DNA from: Escherichia coli
GTDB lineage: Bacteria > Pseudomonadota > Gammaproteobacteria > Enterobacterales > Enterobacteriaceae
Assembly: GCF_030384885.1 (NCBI RefSeq)
Contig: NZ_CP128613.1
Strand: one strand, 5' to 3'
DNA length: 64,000 bases
Positions 20,346-29,320 of the stretch are shown piece after piece. Every line of letters begins with the position of its first letter. Position 1 is the stretch's first letter. The position numbers were made by a program, and so were the translations under genes. The notes beneath the pieces were generated by a model. It was given only the letters and a program-made list of their open reading frames with translations. It ran no database searches and was not told the DNA's origin.

Positions 20346-20454
20346 CGTTGGTCGCCGGATGTGGTGCGAGCGCCTTATCCGGCCTGGGGAATGAGCGATT
20401 TGTAGGCATGATAAGACGCGTTAGCGTCGCATCAGGCAATGGGCAAACGCTCCC
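20346..20454. repeat. REP/BIME palindromic elements between alkA and dgcE
   Basis: GCCGGATGTGGTGCGAGCGCCTTATCCGGCC and GCATGATAAGACGCGTTAGCGTCGCATCAGGCA are classic REP sequences in a convergent intergenic gap. Confidence 0.8.
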
Positions 20455-25424: not shown

Positions 25425-27278
25425 ATGAGACGATTTCTGACGACGCTGATGATACTCCTGGTCGTGCTGGTGGCCGGGTTATCTGCGTTAGTGTTGCTGG
25501 TGAATCCGAATGATTTCCGCGACTATATGGTCAAGCAAGTTGCTGCACGTAGCGGTTATCAATTGCAGCTCGACGGGCCACTGCGTTGGCACGTCTGGCC
25601 GCAACTTAGTATCCTCTCCGGGCGAATGTCTCTCACTGCCCAGGGCGCGAGCCAGCCACTGGTTCGCGCAGACAACATGCGTCTGGACGTGGCGCTTTTA
25701 CCACTGCTGAGTCATCAACTGAGCGTTAAGCAGGTGATGCTAAAAGGGGCAGTGATCCAACTGACGCCGCAGACGGAAGCGGTACGCAGCGAAGATGCCC
25801 CGGTTGCACCGCGCGACAATACCTTGCCGGATCTGTCAGACGATCGCGGATGGTCGTTTGATATATCCAGTCTTAAGGTGGCGGACAGCGTGCTGGTGTT
25901 CCAGCATGAAGATGACGAGCAGGTGACAATCCGTAATATCCGCCTGCAAATGGAACAAGATCCCCAACATCGTGGTTCATTTGAGTTCTCCGGGCGGGTT
26001 AATCGCGATCAGCGCGATCTCACGATATCCCTTAACGGTACGGTAGATGCTTCTGATTATCCGCATGATTTAACGGCGGCTATTGAACAAATTAACTGGC
26101 AGTTGCAGGGTGCCGATTTACCAAAACAAGGTATTCAGGGGCAGGGGAGTTTCCAGGCCCAGTGGCAGGAGTCACATAAACGCCTTTCATTTAACCAAAT
26201 TAGTTTGACCGCCAATGACAGTACGCTGAGCGGGCAAGCACAGGTCACGCTGACAGAGAAACCGGAATGGCAGCTGAGACTGCAATTCCCGCAACTGAAT
26301 CTTGACAACCTCATCCCGCTTAAAGAAACAGCGAACGGTGAAAACGGTGCCGCGCAGCAGGGGCAGAGCCAATCAACATTGCCGCGCCCGGTCATTTCTT
26401 CGCGTATTGATGAACCCGCGTATCAGGGGCTGAAAGGCTTTGCGGCAGATATTTTGTTGCAGGCCAGTAACGTGCGCTGGCGCGGAATGAATTTTACAGA
26501 TGTTGCCACGCAAATGACCAACAAGTCGGGTTTGCTGGAAATTACTCAACTGCAGGGCAAGCTTAACGGTGGACAGGTTTCGCTGCCGGGCACGCTGGAC
26601 GCGACATCAATAAATCCGCGGATAATCTTCCAGCCACGGTTGGAAAACGTTGAGATTGGCACCATTCTGAAGGCGTTTAACTATCCGATTTCGTTGACCG
26701 GAAAGATGTCACTTGCGGGTGATTTCTCCGGTGCTGACATAGATGCCGACGCATTCCGCCACAACTGGCAAGGACAGGCGCATGTCGAAATGACGGACAC
26801 ACGTATGGAAGGGATGAACTTCCAGCAGATGATTCAGCAAGCGGTAGAGCGTAATGGTGGTGATGTGAAGGCCGCTGAAAACTTCGATAACGTGACGCGT
26901 CTTGACCGCTTTACCACCGATTTGACGTTGAAGGATGGCGTCGTGACGTTAAACGATATGCAAGGTCAATCGCCTGTGCTGGCGCTGACAGGGGAAGGCA
27001 TGTTGAATTTGGCAGATCAAACCTGCGACACCCAGTTTGATATTCGGGTCGTGGGTGGCTGGAACGGGGAAAGCAAACTGATTGATTTCCTCAAAGAAAC
27101 GCCAGTACCGCTGCGGGTTTATGGCAACTGGCAGCAACTTAATTACAGCCTGCAAGTGGACCAGCTGCTACGCAAACATCTCCAGGACGAAGCGAAACGT
27201 CGCCTGAATGACTGGGCAGAGCGGAATAAAGATTCCCGCAATGGCAAAGATGTGAAGAAGTTGCTGGAGAAGATGTAA
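25425..27278 (+). CDS. asmA: AsmA, outer-membrane assembly protein
   Basis: 617 aa; N-terminal signal-anchor MRRFLTTLMILLVVLVAGLSALVLLV; length and position as in K-12. Confidence 0.93.
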   Translation: MRRFLTTLMILLVVLVAGLSALVLLVNPNDFRDYMVKQVAARSGYQLQLDGPLRWHVWPQLSILSGRMSLTAQGASQPLVRADNMRLDVALLPLLSHQLSVKQVMLKGAVIQLTPQTEAVRSEDAPVAPRDNTLPDLSDDRGWSFDISSLKVADSVLVFQHEDDEQVTIRNIRLQMEQDPQHRGSFEFSGRVNRDQRDLTISLNGTVDASDYPHDLTAAIEQINWQLQGADLPKQGIQGQGSFQAQWQESHKRLSFNQISLTANDSTLSGQAQVTLTEKPEWQLRLQFPQLNLDNLIPLKETANGENGAAQQGQSQSTLPRPVISSRIDEPAYQGLKGFAADILLQASNVRWRGMNFTDVATQMTNKSGLLEITQLQGKLNGGQVSLPGTLDATSINPRIIFQPRLENVEIGTILKAFNYPISLTGKMSLAGDFSGADIDADAFRHNWQGQAHVEMTDTRMEGMNFQQMIQQAVERNGGDVKAAENFDNVTRLDRFTTDLTLKDGVVTLNDMQGQSPVLALTGEGMLNLADQTCDTQFDIRVVGGWNGESKLIDFLKETPVPLRVYGNWQQLNYSLQVDQLLRKHLQDEAKRRLNDWAERNKDSRNGKDVKKLLEKM

Positions 27279-27289
27279 GTCATCCAGAT

Positions 27290-27735
27290 GACATATGCTG
27301 TAGGCCTGATAAGACGCGTAAGCGTCGCATCAGGCAATCACGTAGATTACTTTCAGCAAATATGAATCATCTGTATAAGTAAGATACTTCAGCGAGGGTG
27401 TTGGTCCGGCTGTAAATCGCCGAATCGTTTCCTGTAGGCCGGGGCAGCCCACATGGATGTGGGCTGAGGGCGCGTTTTACAGGGATGTTACCTCGCGCCC
27501 GTACCCGATAGCCGAAAGGAATAAGATGAGGGGACCGCGCTAGCGGCGATTTACCGCCGGGAGCCCGGGTTGCCAGGGTGGTGGCGATTGAGCCACCCTG
27601 GCACGTTCACCGGCTTGAGCGTTCCAAAGTAGCGAGGAACATAAAGTGAACGGAACAGCCTCTAATGTCACATACTCTCCCGGTTGAATGAAACGCCTGA
27701 TGCGACGCTTACGCGTCTTATCAGGCCTACATGCC
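27290..27735. repeat. Inverted REP pair flanking a ~350-bp structured non-coding segment
   Basis: REP copy TGTAGGCCTGATAAGACGCGTAAGCGTCGCATCAGGCA near 27300..27337 and its inverted copy near 27690..27730; the interior carries long hairpins such as CCAGGGTGGTGGCGATTGAGCCACCCTGG. Confidence 0.7.
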
Positions 27736-27736
27736 A

Positions 27737-29320
27737 TCACACCTCGTACTCCATCTCGCCATCCTTACGCAGCGGAATAATCTGCACCTTCTGCACGCGA
27801 TGGCTTTCCACCTGCAACGTTTTAAGCAAATAATCCCCCACCTGAACTTCTTCGCCAGGTTTTGGAATACGCTGCAAATATTCCATCAACAGCCCGGCAA
27901 TGGTGTGATATTCACGTTTTTCATCCAGCGGCAGCGGCACATATTGCACCAGATCTTCCAGCGGCATATGACCATTCGCTGTCCATGAACCGTCGGCATT
28001 TTTCTGAATATCATGACGGGCATCGATCTCTTCCACTTCGTTTGGCAAGTTACCTGCAATGGTTTCAGTGACGTCACTTAATGTCACAATCCCTTCCACC
28101 GAGCCAAACTCATCCACCACAAAAGCAAAGTGTGTGCGGGCATTACGGAACTGCTCCAGGGCAGGTAACAACGGTAAAGTTTCCGGGAACACCAGCGGCT
28201 GGCGAATCAACACCCGCAGGTTGAGCGGTTCGCCGCGCAGTGACTGTTGTAACAGGTCGATAACGTGAACAACACCGAGCAAATCTTCTGCATCATCGCC
28301 GTCGGTAACGACCAGACGCGTGTGCTGATTTCGCTCCAGCAGCTGGCGGATCTCCTCTTCCGGCGCGTTGAGATCGATATGCTCAATATCGTGGCGCGAC
28401 GTCATAATGCTGCTGACAGTACGCTGGTTAAGATTAAGTACCCGCTCAATCATCCGCCGTTCCTGCGGATTAAAGATCTGCTGGTTACCATGATCCACCA
28501 GCATGGACGCGGTTTCGGCATCCAGTTCCGCATCTTCTTTTTGCCCGCTTAACAAGCGCATTACCGCTTCGGTAGTCCGCTGGCGCAGCGTCTGGTTAGC
28601 GGAAAGAAAACGTCGCCGGTTAAAGATAGCCAGTTGATTGAGCGCCTCGATCATCACCGAGAAACCAATGGCAGCGTACAGGTAGCCTTTCGGAATGACG
28701 AAGCCGAAACCTTCCGCCACCAGGCTAAAGCCAATCATCAACAGGAAGCTTAGGCAGAGAATAACGATGGTCGGGTGGCTATTAACGAACTGGGTTAACG
28801 GCTTGCTTGCCATCAGCATCAGGCTGATCGCGATAACCACGGCGGCCATCATGACCAGTAAATGGTCGACCATCCCGACGGCGGTAATCACCGAGTCAAG
28901 TGAGAAGATGGCGTCCAGCACCACAATTTGCGTCACCACGCCCCAGAACTTCGCACCTTTGCGTTGTGTGGGGTTATTGCTGTCTTTCCCCTCCAGCCGT
29001 TCGTTCAACTCCATCGTGGCTTTGAACAGCAGGAAGAAACCACCAAACAGCATGATTAAGTCGCGGGCACTAAAGGTAAACGAGCGGAAGCTGAACAGCG
29101 GTTGAGTCAGGGTGACCAGCCAGGAGATTGACGCCAGCAGTAACAGGCGCATTAACATCGCCAGCAGCAGCCCGGTAACCCGTGCGCGGTCGCGCTGCTT
29201 CGGCGGTAGTTTTTCGGCGAGGATGGCAATAAAGACCAGGTTATCAATGCCGAGGACCAGTTCGATCACAATCAGCGTGATTAACCCGGCCCAGATAGAC
29301 GGATCGGCAATCCATTCCAT
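27737..29320 (-). CDS. yegH: YegH, TerC/CBS/CorC-domain inner membrane protein
   Basis: Track ORF 27737..29386(-); start set at [18 protein letters not shown] for 527 aa. TerC-like TM region followed by CBS pair and CorC/TransAssoc C-terminal domain. Confidence 0.88.

What the first reader, a model, noticed from the sequence alone, without database searches (positions are those of the whole stretch)
27279..27736. Inverted REP pair flanking a ~350-bp structured segment between asmA and yegH
Nearly identical REP sequences in inverted orientation (TGTAGGCCTGATAAGACGCGTAAGCGTCGCATCAGGCA and its complement) bracket a GC-rich segment with several long perfect hairpins (for example CCAGGGTGGTGGCGATTGAGCCACCCTGG and GGCCGGGGCAGCCCACATGGATGTGGGCTGAGGGCGCG). 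The only ORFs here are short, overlap the REPs and look spurious. This could be a MITE-like REP-bounded insertion or an unannotated structured RNA between two convergent genes.
Basis: seen in the sequence. Interest (0 to 1): 0.4.

Follow-up and report, generated by a model that had tools for sequence, protein, structure and literature searches.

The report
Flipped TRIP1/RRS-like repeat between two REPs
The asmA-yegH spacer of this E. coli strain holds an uncatalogued, G-quadruplex-less relative of the known TRIP1 / 'replication risk sequence' repeat, a tightly folded ~275-base element. It lies between two identical inverted REP units and points the opposite way from the copy in most other strains, so it is a rare old variant of a known kind of element and not a new mobile element.

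Summary
A perfect 37-nt inverted REP pair (27299-27335 / 27695-27731) brackets 359 bp in the convergent asmA-yegH spacer.

The interior is not REP-bounded mobile DNA. Its ~275-nt core (27386-27660) is a divergent copy of the E. coli TRIP1 repeat family. Two TRIP1 copies are the experimentally studied RRS elements. This locus is absent from the published TRIP1 catalogue, and this copy lacks the RRS G-quadruplex.

The fold is kept by compensatory changes in 48 copies from at least 7 enterobacterial genera. Its 5' two-thirds has the architecture of Rfam TwoAYGGAY, but scores below threshold. Both hairpin loops carry a near-invariant CsrA-type GGA.

The two-REP arrangement occurs in 41 of 5,426 complete E. 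coli genomes and in two other Escherichia lineages. About 1,400 genomes carry the same core in the opposite orientation with one REP. Most others, including K-12, have lost its 5' half.

No near-identical flipped form exists, so there is no sign of a working switch. The two REPs evolve in concert.

Whether the element acts as RNA or as single-stranded DNA is unresolved. I lean to RNA at about 40%.

The parts
25425..27278 (+). asmA coding sequence (context; upstream convergent gene)
   Evidence: ORF list; PGAP annotation of the identical record.
27299..27335 (+). REP-L, an ordinary REP unit 20 nt after the asmA stop codon. It is present in all haplotypes of the locus.
   Evidence: I1, I6; naRNA4 REP hairpin. 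IS621 is inserted exactly here (TGTAG|IS|AGGCC) in strain 2017-02-2CC.
27336..27385 (+). Haplotype-specific leader between REP-L and the core. It contains a TTCAGCAA box (27352-27359) that recurs about 45 nt upstream of other copies.
   Evidence: Upstream comparison. It is only weakly alignable with the other haplotype. The scan found no sigma-70 promoter here.
27386..27660 (+). Core of the TRIP1/RRS-like element (divergent sub-type). It folds on one strand into a closed multi-helix structure.
   Evidence: nhmmer, full length, 287.6 bits. 85.7% identity over 189 nt and 76% overall to K-12 TRIP1a. Structure test on 48 copies. Folds.
27406..27560 (+). TwoAYGGAY-like 5' domain. A 17-bp outer stem (27406-27422 / 27544-27560) encloses an inner stem and two adjacent hairpins.
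   Evidence: I2. Rfam RF01731 match at 27439-27507, 29.1 bits against gathering score 43. Full-length sub-threshold matches in sister copies. Covariation in helices 4-6, 9, 10 and 12.
27445..27466 (+). Hairpin 1, loop ACAUGGAUGU (GGA at 27455-27457).
   Evidence: I10. Compensatory changes at 4 of 9 pairs (helix 9). GGA is present in all 48 copies although the loop was not part of the search pattern.
27468..27500 (+). Hairpin 2, loop ACAGGGAUGU (GGA at 27483-27485). It fits the CsrA SELEX consensus RUACARGGAUGU, which I cite from my own knowledge.
   Evidence: (helices 10, 11). The loop carries GGA in 47 of 48 copies; one E. coli B-type copy has GUGA.
27571..27603 (+). 3' hairpin. [quoted passage not shown] Here it reads TGCCAGGGTGGTGGCG.
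   Evidence: (I8), alignments, G4 scan (G4Hunter maximum 1.04 here against 1.84 in TRIP1a/c).
27604..27652 (+). Terminal helix CGTTCAC (27604-27610) / GUGAACG (27646-27652) with a variable insert.
   Evidence: helix 15: 96.4% of cells paired, 3 of 7 pairs with changes on both sides (CGUUCAC/GUGAACG against CGCUCC/GGAGCG).
27661..27694 (+). Haplotype-specific tail between the core and REP-R.
   Evidence: No terminator-like site.
27695..27731 (-). REP-R, an exact inverted copy of REP-L. It is present only in the rare 'W' haplotype.
   Evidence: (I1). W1 REPs both have loop GTAAGC and W2 REPs both have GTAAAGC.
27737..29320 (-). yegH (TerC family) coding sequence (context; downstream convergent gene)
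   Evidence: PGAP annotation of the identical record.

Best explanation
**What it is (shown).** The spacer is a rare structural haplotype, which I call 'W'. The locus's resident copy of an old enterobacterial repeat lies between two ordinary REP units that are exact inverted copies of each other. The repeat is known in E. coli as TRIP1, and two of its copies are the RRS 'replication risk sequences'.
- The ~275-nt core is a divergent sub-type: 76% identical to TRIP1a, with a different 3' domain and no RRS G-quadruplex. It is not among the five published TRIP1 loci.
- On one strand it folds into a closed multi-helix structure that is kept by compensatory changes across genera.
- The 5' two-thirds has the TwoAYGGAY architecture, with two hairpin loops that carry a near-invariant GGA (all 48 copies in loop 1, 47 of 48 in loop 2).

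**Origin (inferred).**
- The core points the opposite way from the copy in about 97% of the E. coli that still have it.
- The same two-REP arrangement exists in two other Escherichia lineages. So the flip is old or was exchanged by recombination, and it is not an operating switch.
- Its breakpoints cannot be placed.
- The two REPs are kept identical by gene conversion.

**How it works (inferred; about 40% for this mode).** The core is expressed as a structured RNA that presents two GGA hairpins to a dimeric RNA-binding protein of the CsrA type. This is what was proposed for TwoAYGGAY.
- In this haplotype it would be read on the asmA strand.
- The 37-bp REP-L:REP-R duplex could then close the transcript as a processing or stabilising stalk.

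I put the identity and haplotype statements at about 0.9. The overall confidence of 0.6 blends that with the much less certain mode of action.
For: **Family identity.**
- The core belongs to a dispersed family with a median of 3 places per E. coli genome. Copies lie at lysO-aqpZ, efeU-putP, alx-sstT and proX-ygaY.
- My hit in K-12 (915013-915284) coincides with the published TRIP1a at 915016-915281.
- TRIP1a and TRIP1c are RRS-lysO and RRS-dusC.
- The asmA-yegH locus is not among the TRIP1a-e loci.

**Structure.**
- 48 distinct copies from Escherichia, Kluyvera, Enterobacter, Pluralibacter, Pseudocitrobacter, Silvania and Huaxiibacter were aligned.
- 80.1% of cells are paired, against 38-43% when partners are slid.
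- 38 pairs have changes on both sides, against 19-23 when slid.
- The covariation score is 0.174 against 0.05-0.08 when slid, and 0 of 500 shuffles reach it.
- RNAalifold independently finds 17 compensatory pairs.

**TwoAYGGAY link.**
- Same-strand, same-register matches to RF01731 score 29.1-36.6 bits in this and sister copies.
- A head-to-head partner element in Pseudocitrobacter passes the gathering score (49.2 bits against 43). It also aligns to the family HMM and to this core along its whole length.
- A CsrA-binding role for TwoAYGGAY was proposed by Gardner and Eldai 2015 (PMC4333381).
- GGA is conserved in loop 1 of all 48 copies and loop 2 of 47, and the loops lay in the unspecified gaps of the search pattern.

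**Haplotypes.**
- W is present in 41 of 5,426 genomes, in two sub-types at >=99% and about 95.7% identity.
- The opposite orientation with one REP is present in about 1,400 genomes.
- The K-12 type lacks the 5' half.
- W orientation is seen in Escherichia sp. E1V33 and in the divergent strain SCPM-O-B-8794. The opposite orientation is seen in Escherichia sp. MOD1-EC7003.
- The core is 97.8% identical between orientations and the flanking gene ends are about 96.4% identical.

**REPs and the stalk.**
- REP concerted evolution is shown.
- The whole spacer's minimum-energy RNA fold closes with the REP-L:REP-R duplex (-226 kcal/mol, z = -9.96).

**Orientation argument.** Non-RRS TRIP1 copies, and both orientations at this locus, persist regardless of replication direction (plus K-12 map knowledge). 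That fits a self-contained RNA better than a lagging-strand device.
Against: **Against the RNA reading.**
- No transcript evidence is available.
- No sigma-70 promoter or intrinsic terminator is found in the spacer, and no consistent terminator follows other copies.
- G:U pairs are no commoner than A:C in the well-aligned helices (25 against 29 of 2,536 cells). So nothing marks the strand or the molecule as RNA. The same fold is predicted for single-stranded DNA.
- The TwoAYGGAY score for this copy is below Rfam's threshold, and loop 2 is AGGGAU, not AYGGAY.
- The gene-level tables of the E. coli CsrA CLIP-seq study list no binding at neighbouring genes. These tables do not cover intergenic repeats.
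- The only experiments on the family show a DNA-level effect.

**Against function at this locus.** About 73% of E. coli genomes have lost the 5' domain here, so this copy is dispensable.

**Caveats on the alignment.**
- The three anchor motifs are invariant by construction of the search pattern.
- The tested structure came from this sequence's own fold. That inflates the 'cells paired' measure but not the counts of changes on both sides.
Confidence: 0.6

Rival explanations
1. It works like an RRS, at the DNA level. When the fork unwinds the spacer, the sense strand folds on the lagging-strand template, stalls the lagging-strand polymerase and leaves a transient post-replication gap. On this reading the W haplotype is the 'active' orientation and the common haplotype the 'silent' one.
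For: - The closest characterised relatives, TRIP1a and TRIP1c (RRS-lysO and RRS-dusC), do exactly this. The effect depends on orientation (PMC11194060 and PMC10287960).
- The core folds very stably as single-stranded DNA (-75.6 kcal/mol, z = -7.43).
- Covariation is equally compatible with DNA hairpins, and there is no G:U excess.
- In the window the sense strand is the + strand. That strand has positive GC skew in 7 of 8 8-kb bins and is the asmA strand. So it is the lagging-strand template, as for both RRS.
Against: - The feature held responsible for polymerase arrest, the G4 GGGGGTGCAGGGGGCGGCGG, is absent. Only a weak two-tetrad candidate remains, with G4Hunter 1.04 against 1.84.
- The common haplotype is in the 'wrong' orientation, as are the efeU-putP and alx-sstT copies. 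Yet their sequence and fold are conserved.
- The near-invariant GGA loops are not explained by a mere obstacle.
- Most strains have deleted half of this copy.
Confidence: 0.25
2. It is a decaying relic. The copy at this locus has no present function. The REP pair and the flip are neutral by-products of REP turnover and recombination in a region next to the colanic-acid and O-antigen recombination hot spot.
For: - About 73% of complete genomes carry only the 3' 159 nt. The rest was lost by a 178-bp deletion between AT[CT]GGGTA direct repeats.
- IS621 and IS1 insertions are tolerated in the spacer.
- At proX-ygaY the sister element is replaced outright by a two-REP BIME in K-12.
Against: - Where the core is kept, it is 97.8% identical between haplotypes whose adjoining 35-50 nt are barely alignable. 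It is 97.8-98.5% identical in Escherichia lineages whose asmA end is only 89-92% identical.
- Compensatory changes keep every helix.
Confidence: 0.3
3. It is an active invertible switch (inverton). The 37-bp inverted REPs are the crossover sites, and the segment flips within populations, reorienting the element or a promoter.
For: - The anatomy is that of an inverton: perfect 37-nt inverted repeats around 359 bp.
- Both orientations of the core exist among strains.
- The two REPs exchange sequence. The same 1-nt loop deletion is in both copies in W1 but in neither copy in W2.
Against: - A synthetic flipped-W query finds no genome above 86.7% identity at full length among 5,426.
- All 41 W genomes have the same orientation.
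- The opposite-orientation haplotype lacks the second REP and has different joining sequences.
- No recombinase gene lies within 3 kb; the neighbours are udk, dcd, asmA, yegH and wza.
Confidence: 0.05
4. It is a REP-bounded MITE or an atypical BIME. The REPs are the terminal inverted repeats of one mobile unit, or the whole is a known REP composite.
For: - Inverted REPs lie at both ends.
- REPs are mobilised by RAYT transposases (my knowledge).
- REPs and the TRIP1-like element occupy the same spacers at asmA-yegH, efeU-putP and proX-ygaY.
Against: - Family copies elsewhere have no REP ends.
- The core occurs at this locus without the second REP.
- No target-site duplication is seen.
- BIME linkers are short motifs (my knowledge), not a 359-bp conserved element.
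- The interior, not the REP pair, is the conserved unit across genera.
Confidence: 0.03

Closest known systems
TRIP1 repeats of E. coli (Rudd 1999; Li et al. 2024, PMC10888264)
   Same: - The element is 146-273 bp, GC-rich and intergenic, with a very stable predicted fold.
- The core aligns over its full length to the family HMM.
- It is 85.7% identical to TRIP1a over the 5' 189 nt and 76% overall.
- Like TRIP1a-e it sits just downstream of a membrane or transport gene.
   Different: - It is not one of the five catalogued loci.
- It belongs to a second sub-family, shared with the proX-ygaY copy and with Enterobacter, Silvania and Huaxiibacter copies. In this sub-family the 3' hairpin and terminal helix are rewritten by compensatory changes (CCAGGGUGG.../GUGAACG instead of CAGGGGGCGG.../GGAGCG).
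- It is bracketed by REPs here.
RRS, replication risk sequences (Pham et al. 2023 and 2024; PMC10287960, PMC11194060)
   Same: - It is homologous to RRS-lysO and RRS-dusC.
- In this haplotype the sense strand is on the lagging-strand template (plus synteny).
- It has a strong single-stranded DNA fold.
   Different: - It lacks the G4 motif.
- It is 76% identical, not near-identical.
- By K-12 synteny it lies about 90 kb from RRS-dusC, inside the pair, rather than being one of the dif-symmetric pair. This rests on my knowledge of the K-12 map.
- No gap-formation data exist for it.
TwoAYGGAY RNA motif, Rfam RF01731 (Weinberg et al. 2010)
   Same: - A long closing stem, an inner stem and two adjacent hairpins with GGA-containing loops separated by AG.
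- Matches on the same strand and in the same register in all copies tested.
- One enterobacterial partner element passes the gathering score.
- The proposed CsrA-binding loops.
   Different: - This copy scores 29.1 bits against 43.
- Loop 2 is AGGGAU.
- It is GC-rich.
- It carries a ~110-nt 3' extension of two further helices that is absent from the Rfam model.
- The published members are from Clostridia, the gut metagenome and Psychromonas-type gammaproteobacteria.
REP / BIME elements
   Same: The two bracketing units are standard REP palindromes. REP-L follows the asmA stop codon as REPs typically do, and it is a natural IS621 target.
   Different: The two REPs are the same type, exact copies, and 359 bp apart around an unrelated conserved element. 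That is not a BIME linker arrangement.
Invertons (e.g. fimS-type invertible segments)
   Same: Perfect inverted repeats flank a few hundred bp, and both orientations are seen among strains.
   Different: There is no recombinase nearby. No isogenic flipped form exists. The alternative orientation has different boundaries.

Membership tests
TRIP1 repeat family | Sequence similarity to TRIP1a-e over most of the element | tested here: met
   - blastn against K-12 TRIP1a: 85.7% over 189 nt, E = 1e-54. Global identity is 76%.
- The full-length nhmmer alignment is shared with TRIP1a, TRIP1c, TRIP1d and the efeU-putP copy.
TRIP1 repeat family | Located at one of the five type-specific loci (aqpZ-ybjE, putP-ycdN, yohI-yohG, alx-sstT, copA-ybaP) | tested here: not met
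   It lies between asmA and yegH. The loci are as listed in PMC10888264.
TRIP1 repeat family | GC-rich with a very stable predicted secondary structure | tested here: met
   60.4% G+C. RNA minimum free energy -132.1 kcal/mol, z = -5.05.
RRS (replication risk sequence) | G-quadruplex-forming sequence GGGGGTGCAGGGGGCGGCGG on the sense strand | tested here: not met
   The motif is absent from the window on both strands. G4Hunter maximum is 1.04, against 1.84 for TRIP1a/c.
RRS (replication risk sequence) | Sense strand is the lagging-strand template | tested here: inconclusive
   The sense strand is the window + strand. GC skew of the + strand is positive in 7 of 8 bins, and asmA is co-oriented with replication in K-12 (my knowledge of the map). 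This is consistent with the feature, but the origin and terminus are not in the window.
RRS (replication risk sequence) | One of a near-identical inverted pair about 650 kb either side of dif | not testable with these tools
   dif is not in the window. By synteny with K-12 (2.14 Mb) the locus is about 550 kb from dif. This is my calculation from remembered coordinates.
RRS (replication risk sequence) | Triggers RecA/SSB-bound post-replication gaps | not testable with these tools
   This needs ssGap-seq.
TwoAYGGAY RNA (RF01731) | Score at or above Rfam's gathering threshold (43 bits) | tested here: not met
   - This copy scores 29.1 bits.
- Sister copies score 30.6-36.6 bits.
- A head-to-head partner in Pseudocitrobacter scores 49.2 bits.
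TwoAYGGAY RNA (RF01731) | Two adjacent hairpins with AYGGAY terminal loops | tested here: inconclusive
   Loop 1 is AUGGAU and fits. Loop 2 is AGGGAU, with a purine at position 2. Loop 1 carries GGA in all 48 copies and loop 2 in 47 of 48.
TwoAYGGAY RNA (RF01731) | Closing P1 stem around the hairpin pair | tested here: met
   A 17-nt stem, 27406-27422 with 27544-27560 (I2). Pairs are kept with changes on both sides (helices 3-6).
REP / BIME | REP: imperfect palindrome of about 35-40 nt, repeated genome-wide | tested here: met
   (I6, I7), and (REP-only hits elsewhere).
REP / BIME | BIME: inverted REPs joined by a short conserved linker | tested here: not met
   The REPs are 359 bp apart and enclose a TRIP1-like element. 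For contrast, K-12 proX-ygaY has a true two-REP cluster.
MITE | All copies share the terminal inverted repeats and have target-site duplications | tested here: not met
   There are no REPs at the proX-ygaY, lysO-aqpZ or alx-sstT copies. No direct repeat is seen at the spacer junctions.
Inverton | Both orientations of the same segment between the same inverted repeats | tested here: not met
   The flipped-W query's best full-length hit is 86.7% in 5,426 genomes. Read-level data are not available.
Inverton | A dedicated recombinase encoded nearby | tested here: not met
   The neighbours within 3 kb are udk, dcd, asmA, yegH and wza.

The most novel reading that the evidence does not exclude
TRIP1/RRS elements, this copy included, are genes for an enterobacterial branch of the TwoAYGGAY RNA class. 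These RNAs would dock a CsrA dimer, or another GGA-loop-binding protein, on two invariant hairpins.

If so, the 'replication risk' phenotypes of RRS sit on top of, or are partly mediated by, an RNA function. In the W haplotype the perfect REP-L:REP-R duplex would then be a double-stranded processing stalk of the RNase III type. It would release the RNA from asmA read-through transcripts.
Probability: 0.2. Interest if true: 0.75.

Novelty: new variant of a known kind. Interest (0 to 1): 0.45.

Why it matters
**Two literatures are joined.**
- The RRS elements were recently shown to be conditionally essential and to shape chromosome topology in E. coli.
- TwoAYGGAY has been an orphan Rfam motif since 2010.
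- I found no paper in the searchable library that links them.

**If the link holds, several things follow.**
- TwoAYGGAY function becomes testable in E. coli K-12.
- Interpretation of RRS must allow for an RNA product.
- Natural variants like this one separate the conserved fold from the G4-dependent gap function. This copy has no G4, occurs in either orientation, and lies 90 kb from RRS-dusC.

**The locus also shows REP behaviour.** REP pairs undergo gene conversion and serve as IS621 targets.

**Taken on its own, the spacer is modest.** It is a rare allele of a dispensable copy of a known repeat.

Tried and rejected
1. **Searching for the old 'RSA' and 'boxC' repeat names** led nowhere. The family turned up only through a search on the flanking genes aqpZ and ybjE.

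2. **Rfam** gave no hit at gathering threshold in the spacer.

3. **Strand from wobble pairs.** G:U against A:C is 25 against 29, which is uninformative.

4. **Promoter and terminator.** No consensus sites were found in the spacer. Upstream and downstream comparison of 48 copies showed only a loose TTCAGCAA box and no terminator.

5. **Placing the inversion breakpoints.**
   - I first read the leader and tail as homologous and inverted with the core. Shuffle tests do not support this.
   - A 16-nt block in direct orientation next to the core is significant only in this sub-type (3 of 2,000 shuffles) and not in W2 or the other Escherichia lineages.
   - So neither a REP-to-REP flip nor a core-only flip is shown.

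6. **A degenerate second REP in the common haplotype.** It matches only a REP consensus that I recalled from memory, and nothing similar is in the window. I treat it as a lead only.

7. **CsrA CLIP-seq tables** (PMC5694010) list no binding at neighbouring genes, but they are gene-based.

8. **Coding potential.** The three short ORFs have no Pfam match, and the stems covary in a way that does not fit coding.

9. **Empty-site test for mobility at proX-ygaY.** The alleles are a replacement (element against BIME), not a clean insertion.
Full report
**1. Observation**

The window is E. coli, and the spacer is 100% identical to strain 2013C-4282. asmA (+) ends at 27278 and yegH (-) ends at 27737, so 27279-27736 is the whole convergent spacer.

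The inverted repeat is real. Arms 27299-27335 and 27695-27731 are 37 nt long, 100% complementary and 359 nt apart. None is expected by chance.

The arms are ordinary REPs:
- Each is an imperfect palindrome (I6 and I7).
- Each matches the REP hairpin of Rfam naRNA4 below threshold.
- A third near-copy lies at 20401-20437.

The quoted hairpins and a 17-nt long-range pair are present. The core is 60.4% G+C against 49.8% for the window. It folds far better than shuffles as RNA (z = -5.05) or as DNA (z = -7.43). The short ORFs have no Pfam match.

**2. What the interior is**

The core (27386-27660) belongs to a small dispersed family, with a median of 3 places per E. coli genome. Copies lie at lysO-aqpZ, efeU-putP, alx-sstT and proX-ygaY.

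A literature search on the flanking genes identified the family as TRIP1 (Rudd 1999; Li et al. 2024, PMC10888264). My K-12 hit at 915013-915284 coincides with the published TRIP1a coordinates. TRIP1a and TRIP1c are the RRS 'replication risk sequences' of Pham et al.:
- They trigger post-replication gaps.
- They are conditionally essential (PMC10287960, PMC11194060).

The asmA-yegH copy is not among the five catalogued TRIP1 loci. It is 85.7% identical to TRIP1a over the 5' 189 nt and 76% overall. It lacks the RRS G4, with G4Hunter 1.04 against 1.84. Together with the proX-ygaY copy and many Enterobacter, Silvania and Huaxiibacter copies, it forms a second sub-family with a rewritten 3' domain.

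**3. Conserved fold**

A pattern scan of one genome per species, followed by nhmmer, gave 48 distinct full-length copies from at least 7 enterobacterial genera. I tested the fold predicted for this sequence on that alignment:

| Measure | This fold | Partners slid |
|---|---|---|
| Cells paired | 80.1% | 38-43% |
| Pairs with changes on both sides | 38 | 19-23 |
| Covariation score | 0.174 | 0.05-0.08 |

None of 500 shuffles reaches the observed covariation score. RNAalifold independently finds 17 compensatory pairs.

Two caveats apply:
- The three anchor motifs of the search pattern are invariant by construction.
- The structure came from one member of the alignment.

The hairpin loops were in the unspecified gaps of the pattern, yet GGA is present in loop 1 of all 48 copies and in loop 2 of 47. 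Wobble pairs do not mark a strand: G:U 25 against A:C 29.

**4. Link to TwoAYGGAY**

Rfam's only non-REP match is TwoAYGGAY (RF01731). It scores 29.1 bits here and 30.6-36.6 bits, full length, in sister copies including RRS-lysO itself. All are below the gathering score of 43.

In Kluyvera, Enterobacter and Pseudocitrobacter the element often has a divergent, head-to-head partner.
- The Pseudocitrobacter partner passes the threshold at 49.2 bits.
- It aligns with this core helix for helix.

TwoAYGGAY has no known function. A CsrA-binding role was proposed from its loops (PMC4333381). The loops here, ACAUGGAUGU and ACAGGGAUGU, fit the CsrA SELEX consensus as I know it. None of the TRIP1 or RRS papers mentions TwoAYGGAY or CsrA.

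**5. Haplotypes of the spacer**

| Haplotype | Arrangement | Where found |
|---|---|---|
| W | Two inverted REPs, core co-directional with asmA | 41 of 5,426 complete E. coli genomes, in sub-types W1 (>=99%) and W2 (about 95.7%); also Escherichia sp. E1V33 and the divergent strain SCPM-O-B-8794 |
| B | One intact REP, core co-directional with yegH | About 1,400 E. coli genomes; also Escherichia sp. MOD1-EC7003 |
| K-12 type | B with a 178-bp deletion between AT[CT]GGGTA repeats that removes the TwoAYGGAY-like half | Most other E. coli genomes |

- The core is 97.8% identical between W and B, and the flanking gene ends are about 96.4% identical.
- The 35-50 nt joining the core to the REPs are barely alignable in either orientation, so the breakpoints cannot be placed.
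- A synthetic flipped-W query finds nothing above 86.7% at full length. There is therefore no sign of ongoing switching.

**6. The REP pair**

- In W1 both REPs have loop GTAAGC. In W2 both have GTAAAGC.
- In the other Escherichia lineages the two copies differ at 2-4 positions.
- This is concerted evolution by gene conversion between the inverted copies.
- As RNA, the whole spacer's minimum-energy fold closes with the REP-L:REP-R duplex. This is a prediction only.
- REP-L is a live IS621 target. In strain 2017-02-2CC the IS sits at TGTAG|IS|AGGCC.

**7. How it works**

What is shown is a strand-specific fold under selection. What is inferred is the molecule. I weigh three readings.

*RNA, about 40%.*
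- The GGA loops are near-invariant.
- The architecture resembles TwoAYGGAY.
- Copies are conserved whatever their orientation to replication or to neighbouring genes.

*RRS-like action on single-stranded DNA, about 25%.*
- This is the only mode with experiments behind it.
- In W the sense strand is the lagging-strand template (plus synteny).
- But the G4 is missing, and the common haplotype is in the silent orientation.

*A relic with no function at this locus, about 30%.*
- Most strains have deleted half of this copy.

**8. Verdict**

The MITE reading is rejected. 'Structured element' is supported, while 'RNA' is untested. The thing itself is a new variant and a new locus of a known repeat family.

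The most interesting product of the analysis concerns the family, not this spacer. It is the TRIP1/RRS-TwoAYGGAY connection, together with natural G4-less copies in either orientation.

Noticed in passing
L133 (NZ_AP027764.1) 1220-2500, equivalent to window 27303/27304: IS621 (IS110 family, the bridge-RNA recombinase model) is inserted precisely in REP-L (TGTAG|IS|AGGCC, with the AG/CT dinucleotide on both sides) in two W-haplotype genomes. Both REPs of the window carry the same ATCAGGCCTAC-type site.
   Followed up: partly
L114 775-1390; L046 1856-2445; L042, L050, L051, L053, L055, L106-L111, L115, L120: In Kluyvera, Enterobacter and Pseudocitrobacter the TRIP1-like element usually has a divergent partner element head-to-head 100-250 nt away. 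The partner is closer to canonical TwoAYGGAY (up to 49.2 bits). The spacer between them holds direct repeats such as TTAGCTGAAAACTTGCAGCAATATTGG.
   Followed up: partly
L135 3126-3316 against L004 2969-3420 (proX-ygaY spacer): At proX-ygaY some strains carry the sister TRIP1-like element. K-12 instead has a two-REP BIME at the same place. This is a replacement, not an insertion with a clean empty site.
   Followed up: partly
L106 6218-6741 and L110 90-727 against L008 2497-2766 (putP-efeU spacer): The putP-efeU copy is at the orthologous locus in Kluyvera, but it points the opposite way relative to putP and efeU compared with E. coli. This is a second case of an orientation difference at a conserved locus.
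   Followed up: no
L005 3487-3759 (K-12 asmA-yegH spacer) against L003 2920-3370: The K-12-type spacer arose by a 178-bp deletion between short direct repeats (ATCGGGTA / ATTGGGTA). It removed the two GGA hairpins and left only the 3' 159 nt of the element.
   Followed up: yes
window 20401-20437: A third REP of the same type, with 2 mismatches to the pair, lies 7 kb upstream.
   Followed up: no
L003 856-894: A JUMPstart RNA element (RF01707, 53.8 bits, above threshold) lies upstream of wza in the neighbouring colanic-acid cluster. The equivalent region of the window, upstream of wza at about 29979, was not examined.
   Followed up: no
L116 (583-nt contig labelled Bacillus sp. EB106-08-02-XG196) and L045 (MAG 'Proteobacteria bacterium'): A low-coverage 'Bacillus' contig carries an E. 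coli-type TRIP1 copy next to 38 codons 100% identical to E. coli putP, which suggests contamination. A 2.8-kb MAG contig joins a W-type core, 103 nt of yegH and a TRIP1a-like copy, which suggests a chimera.
   Followed up: no
NZ_CP073939.1 (hit H106): An IS1A insertion interrupts the W2-type spacer in poultry strain MB53.
   Followed up: no
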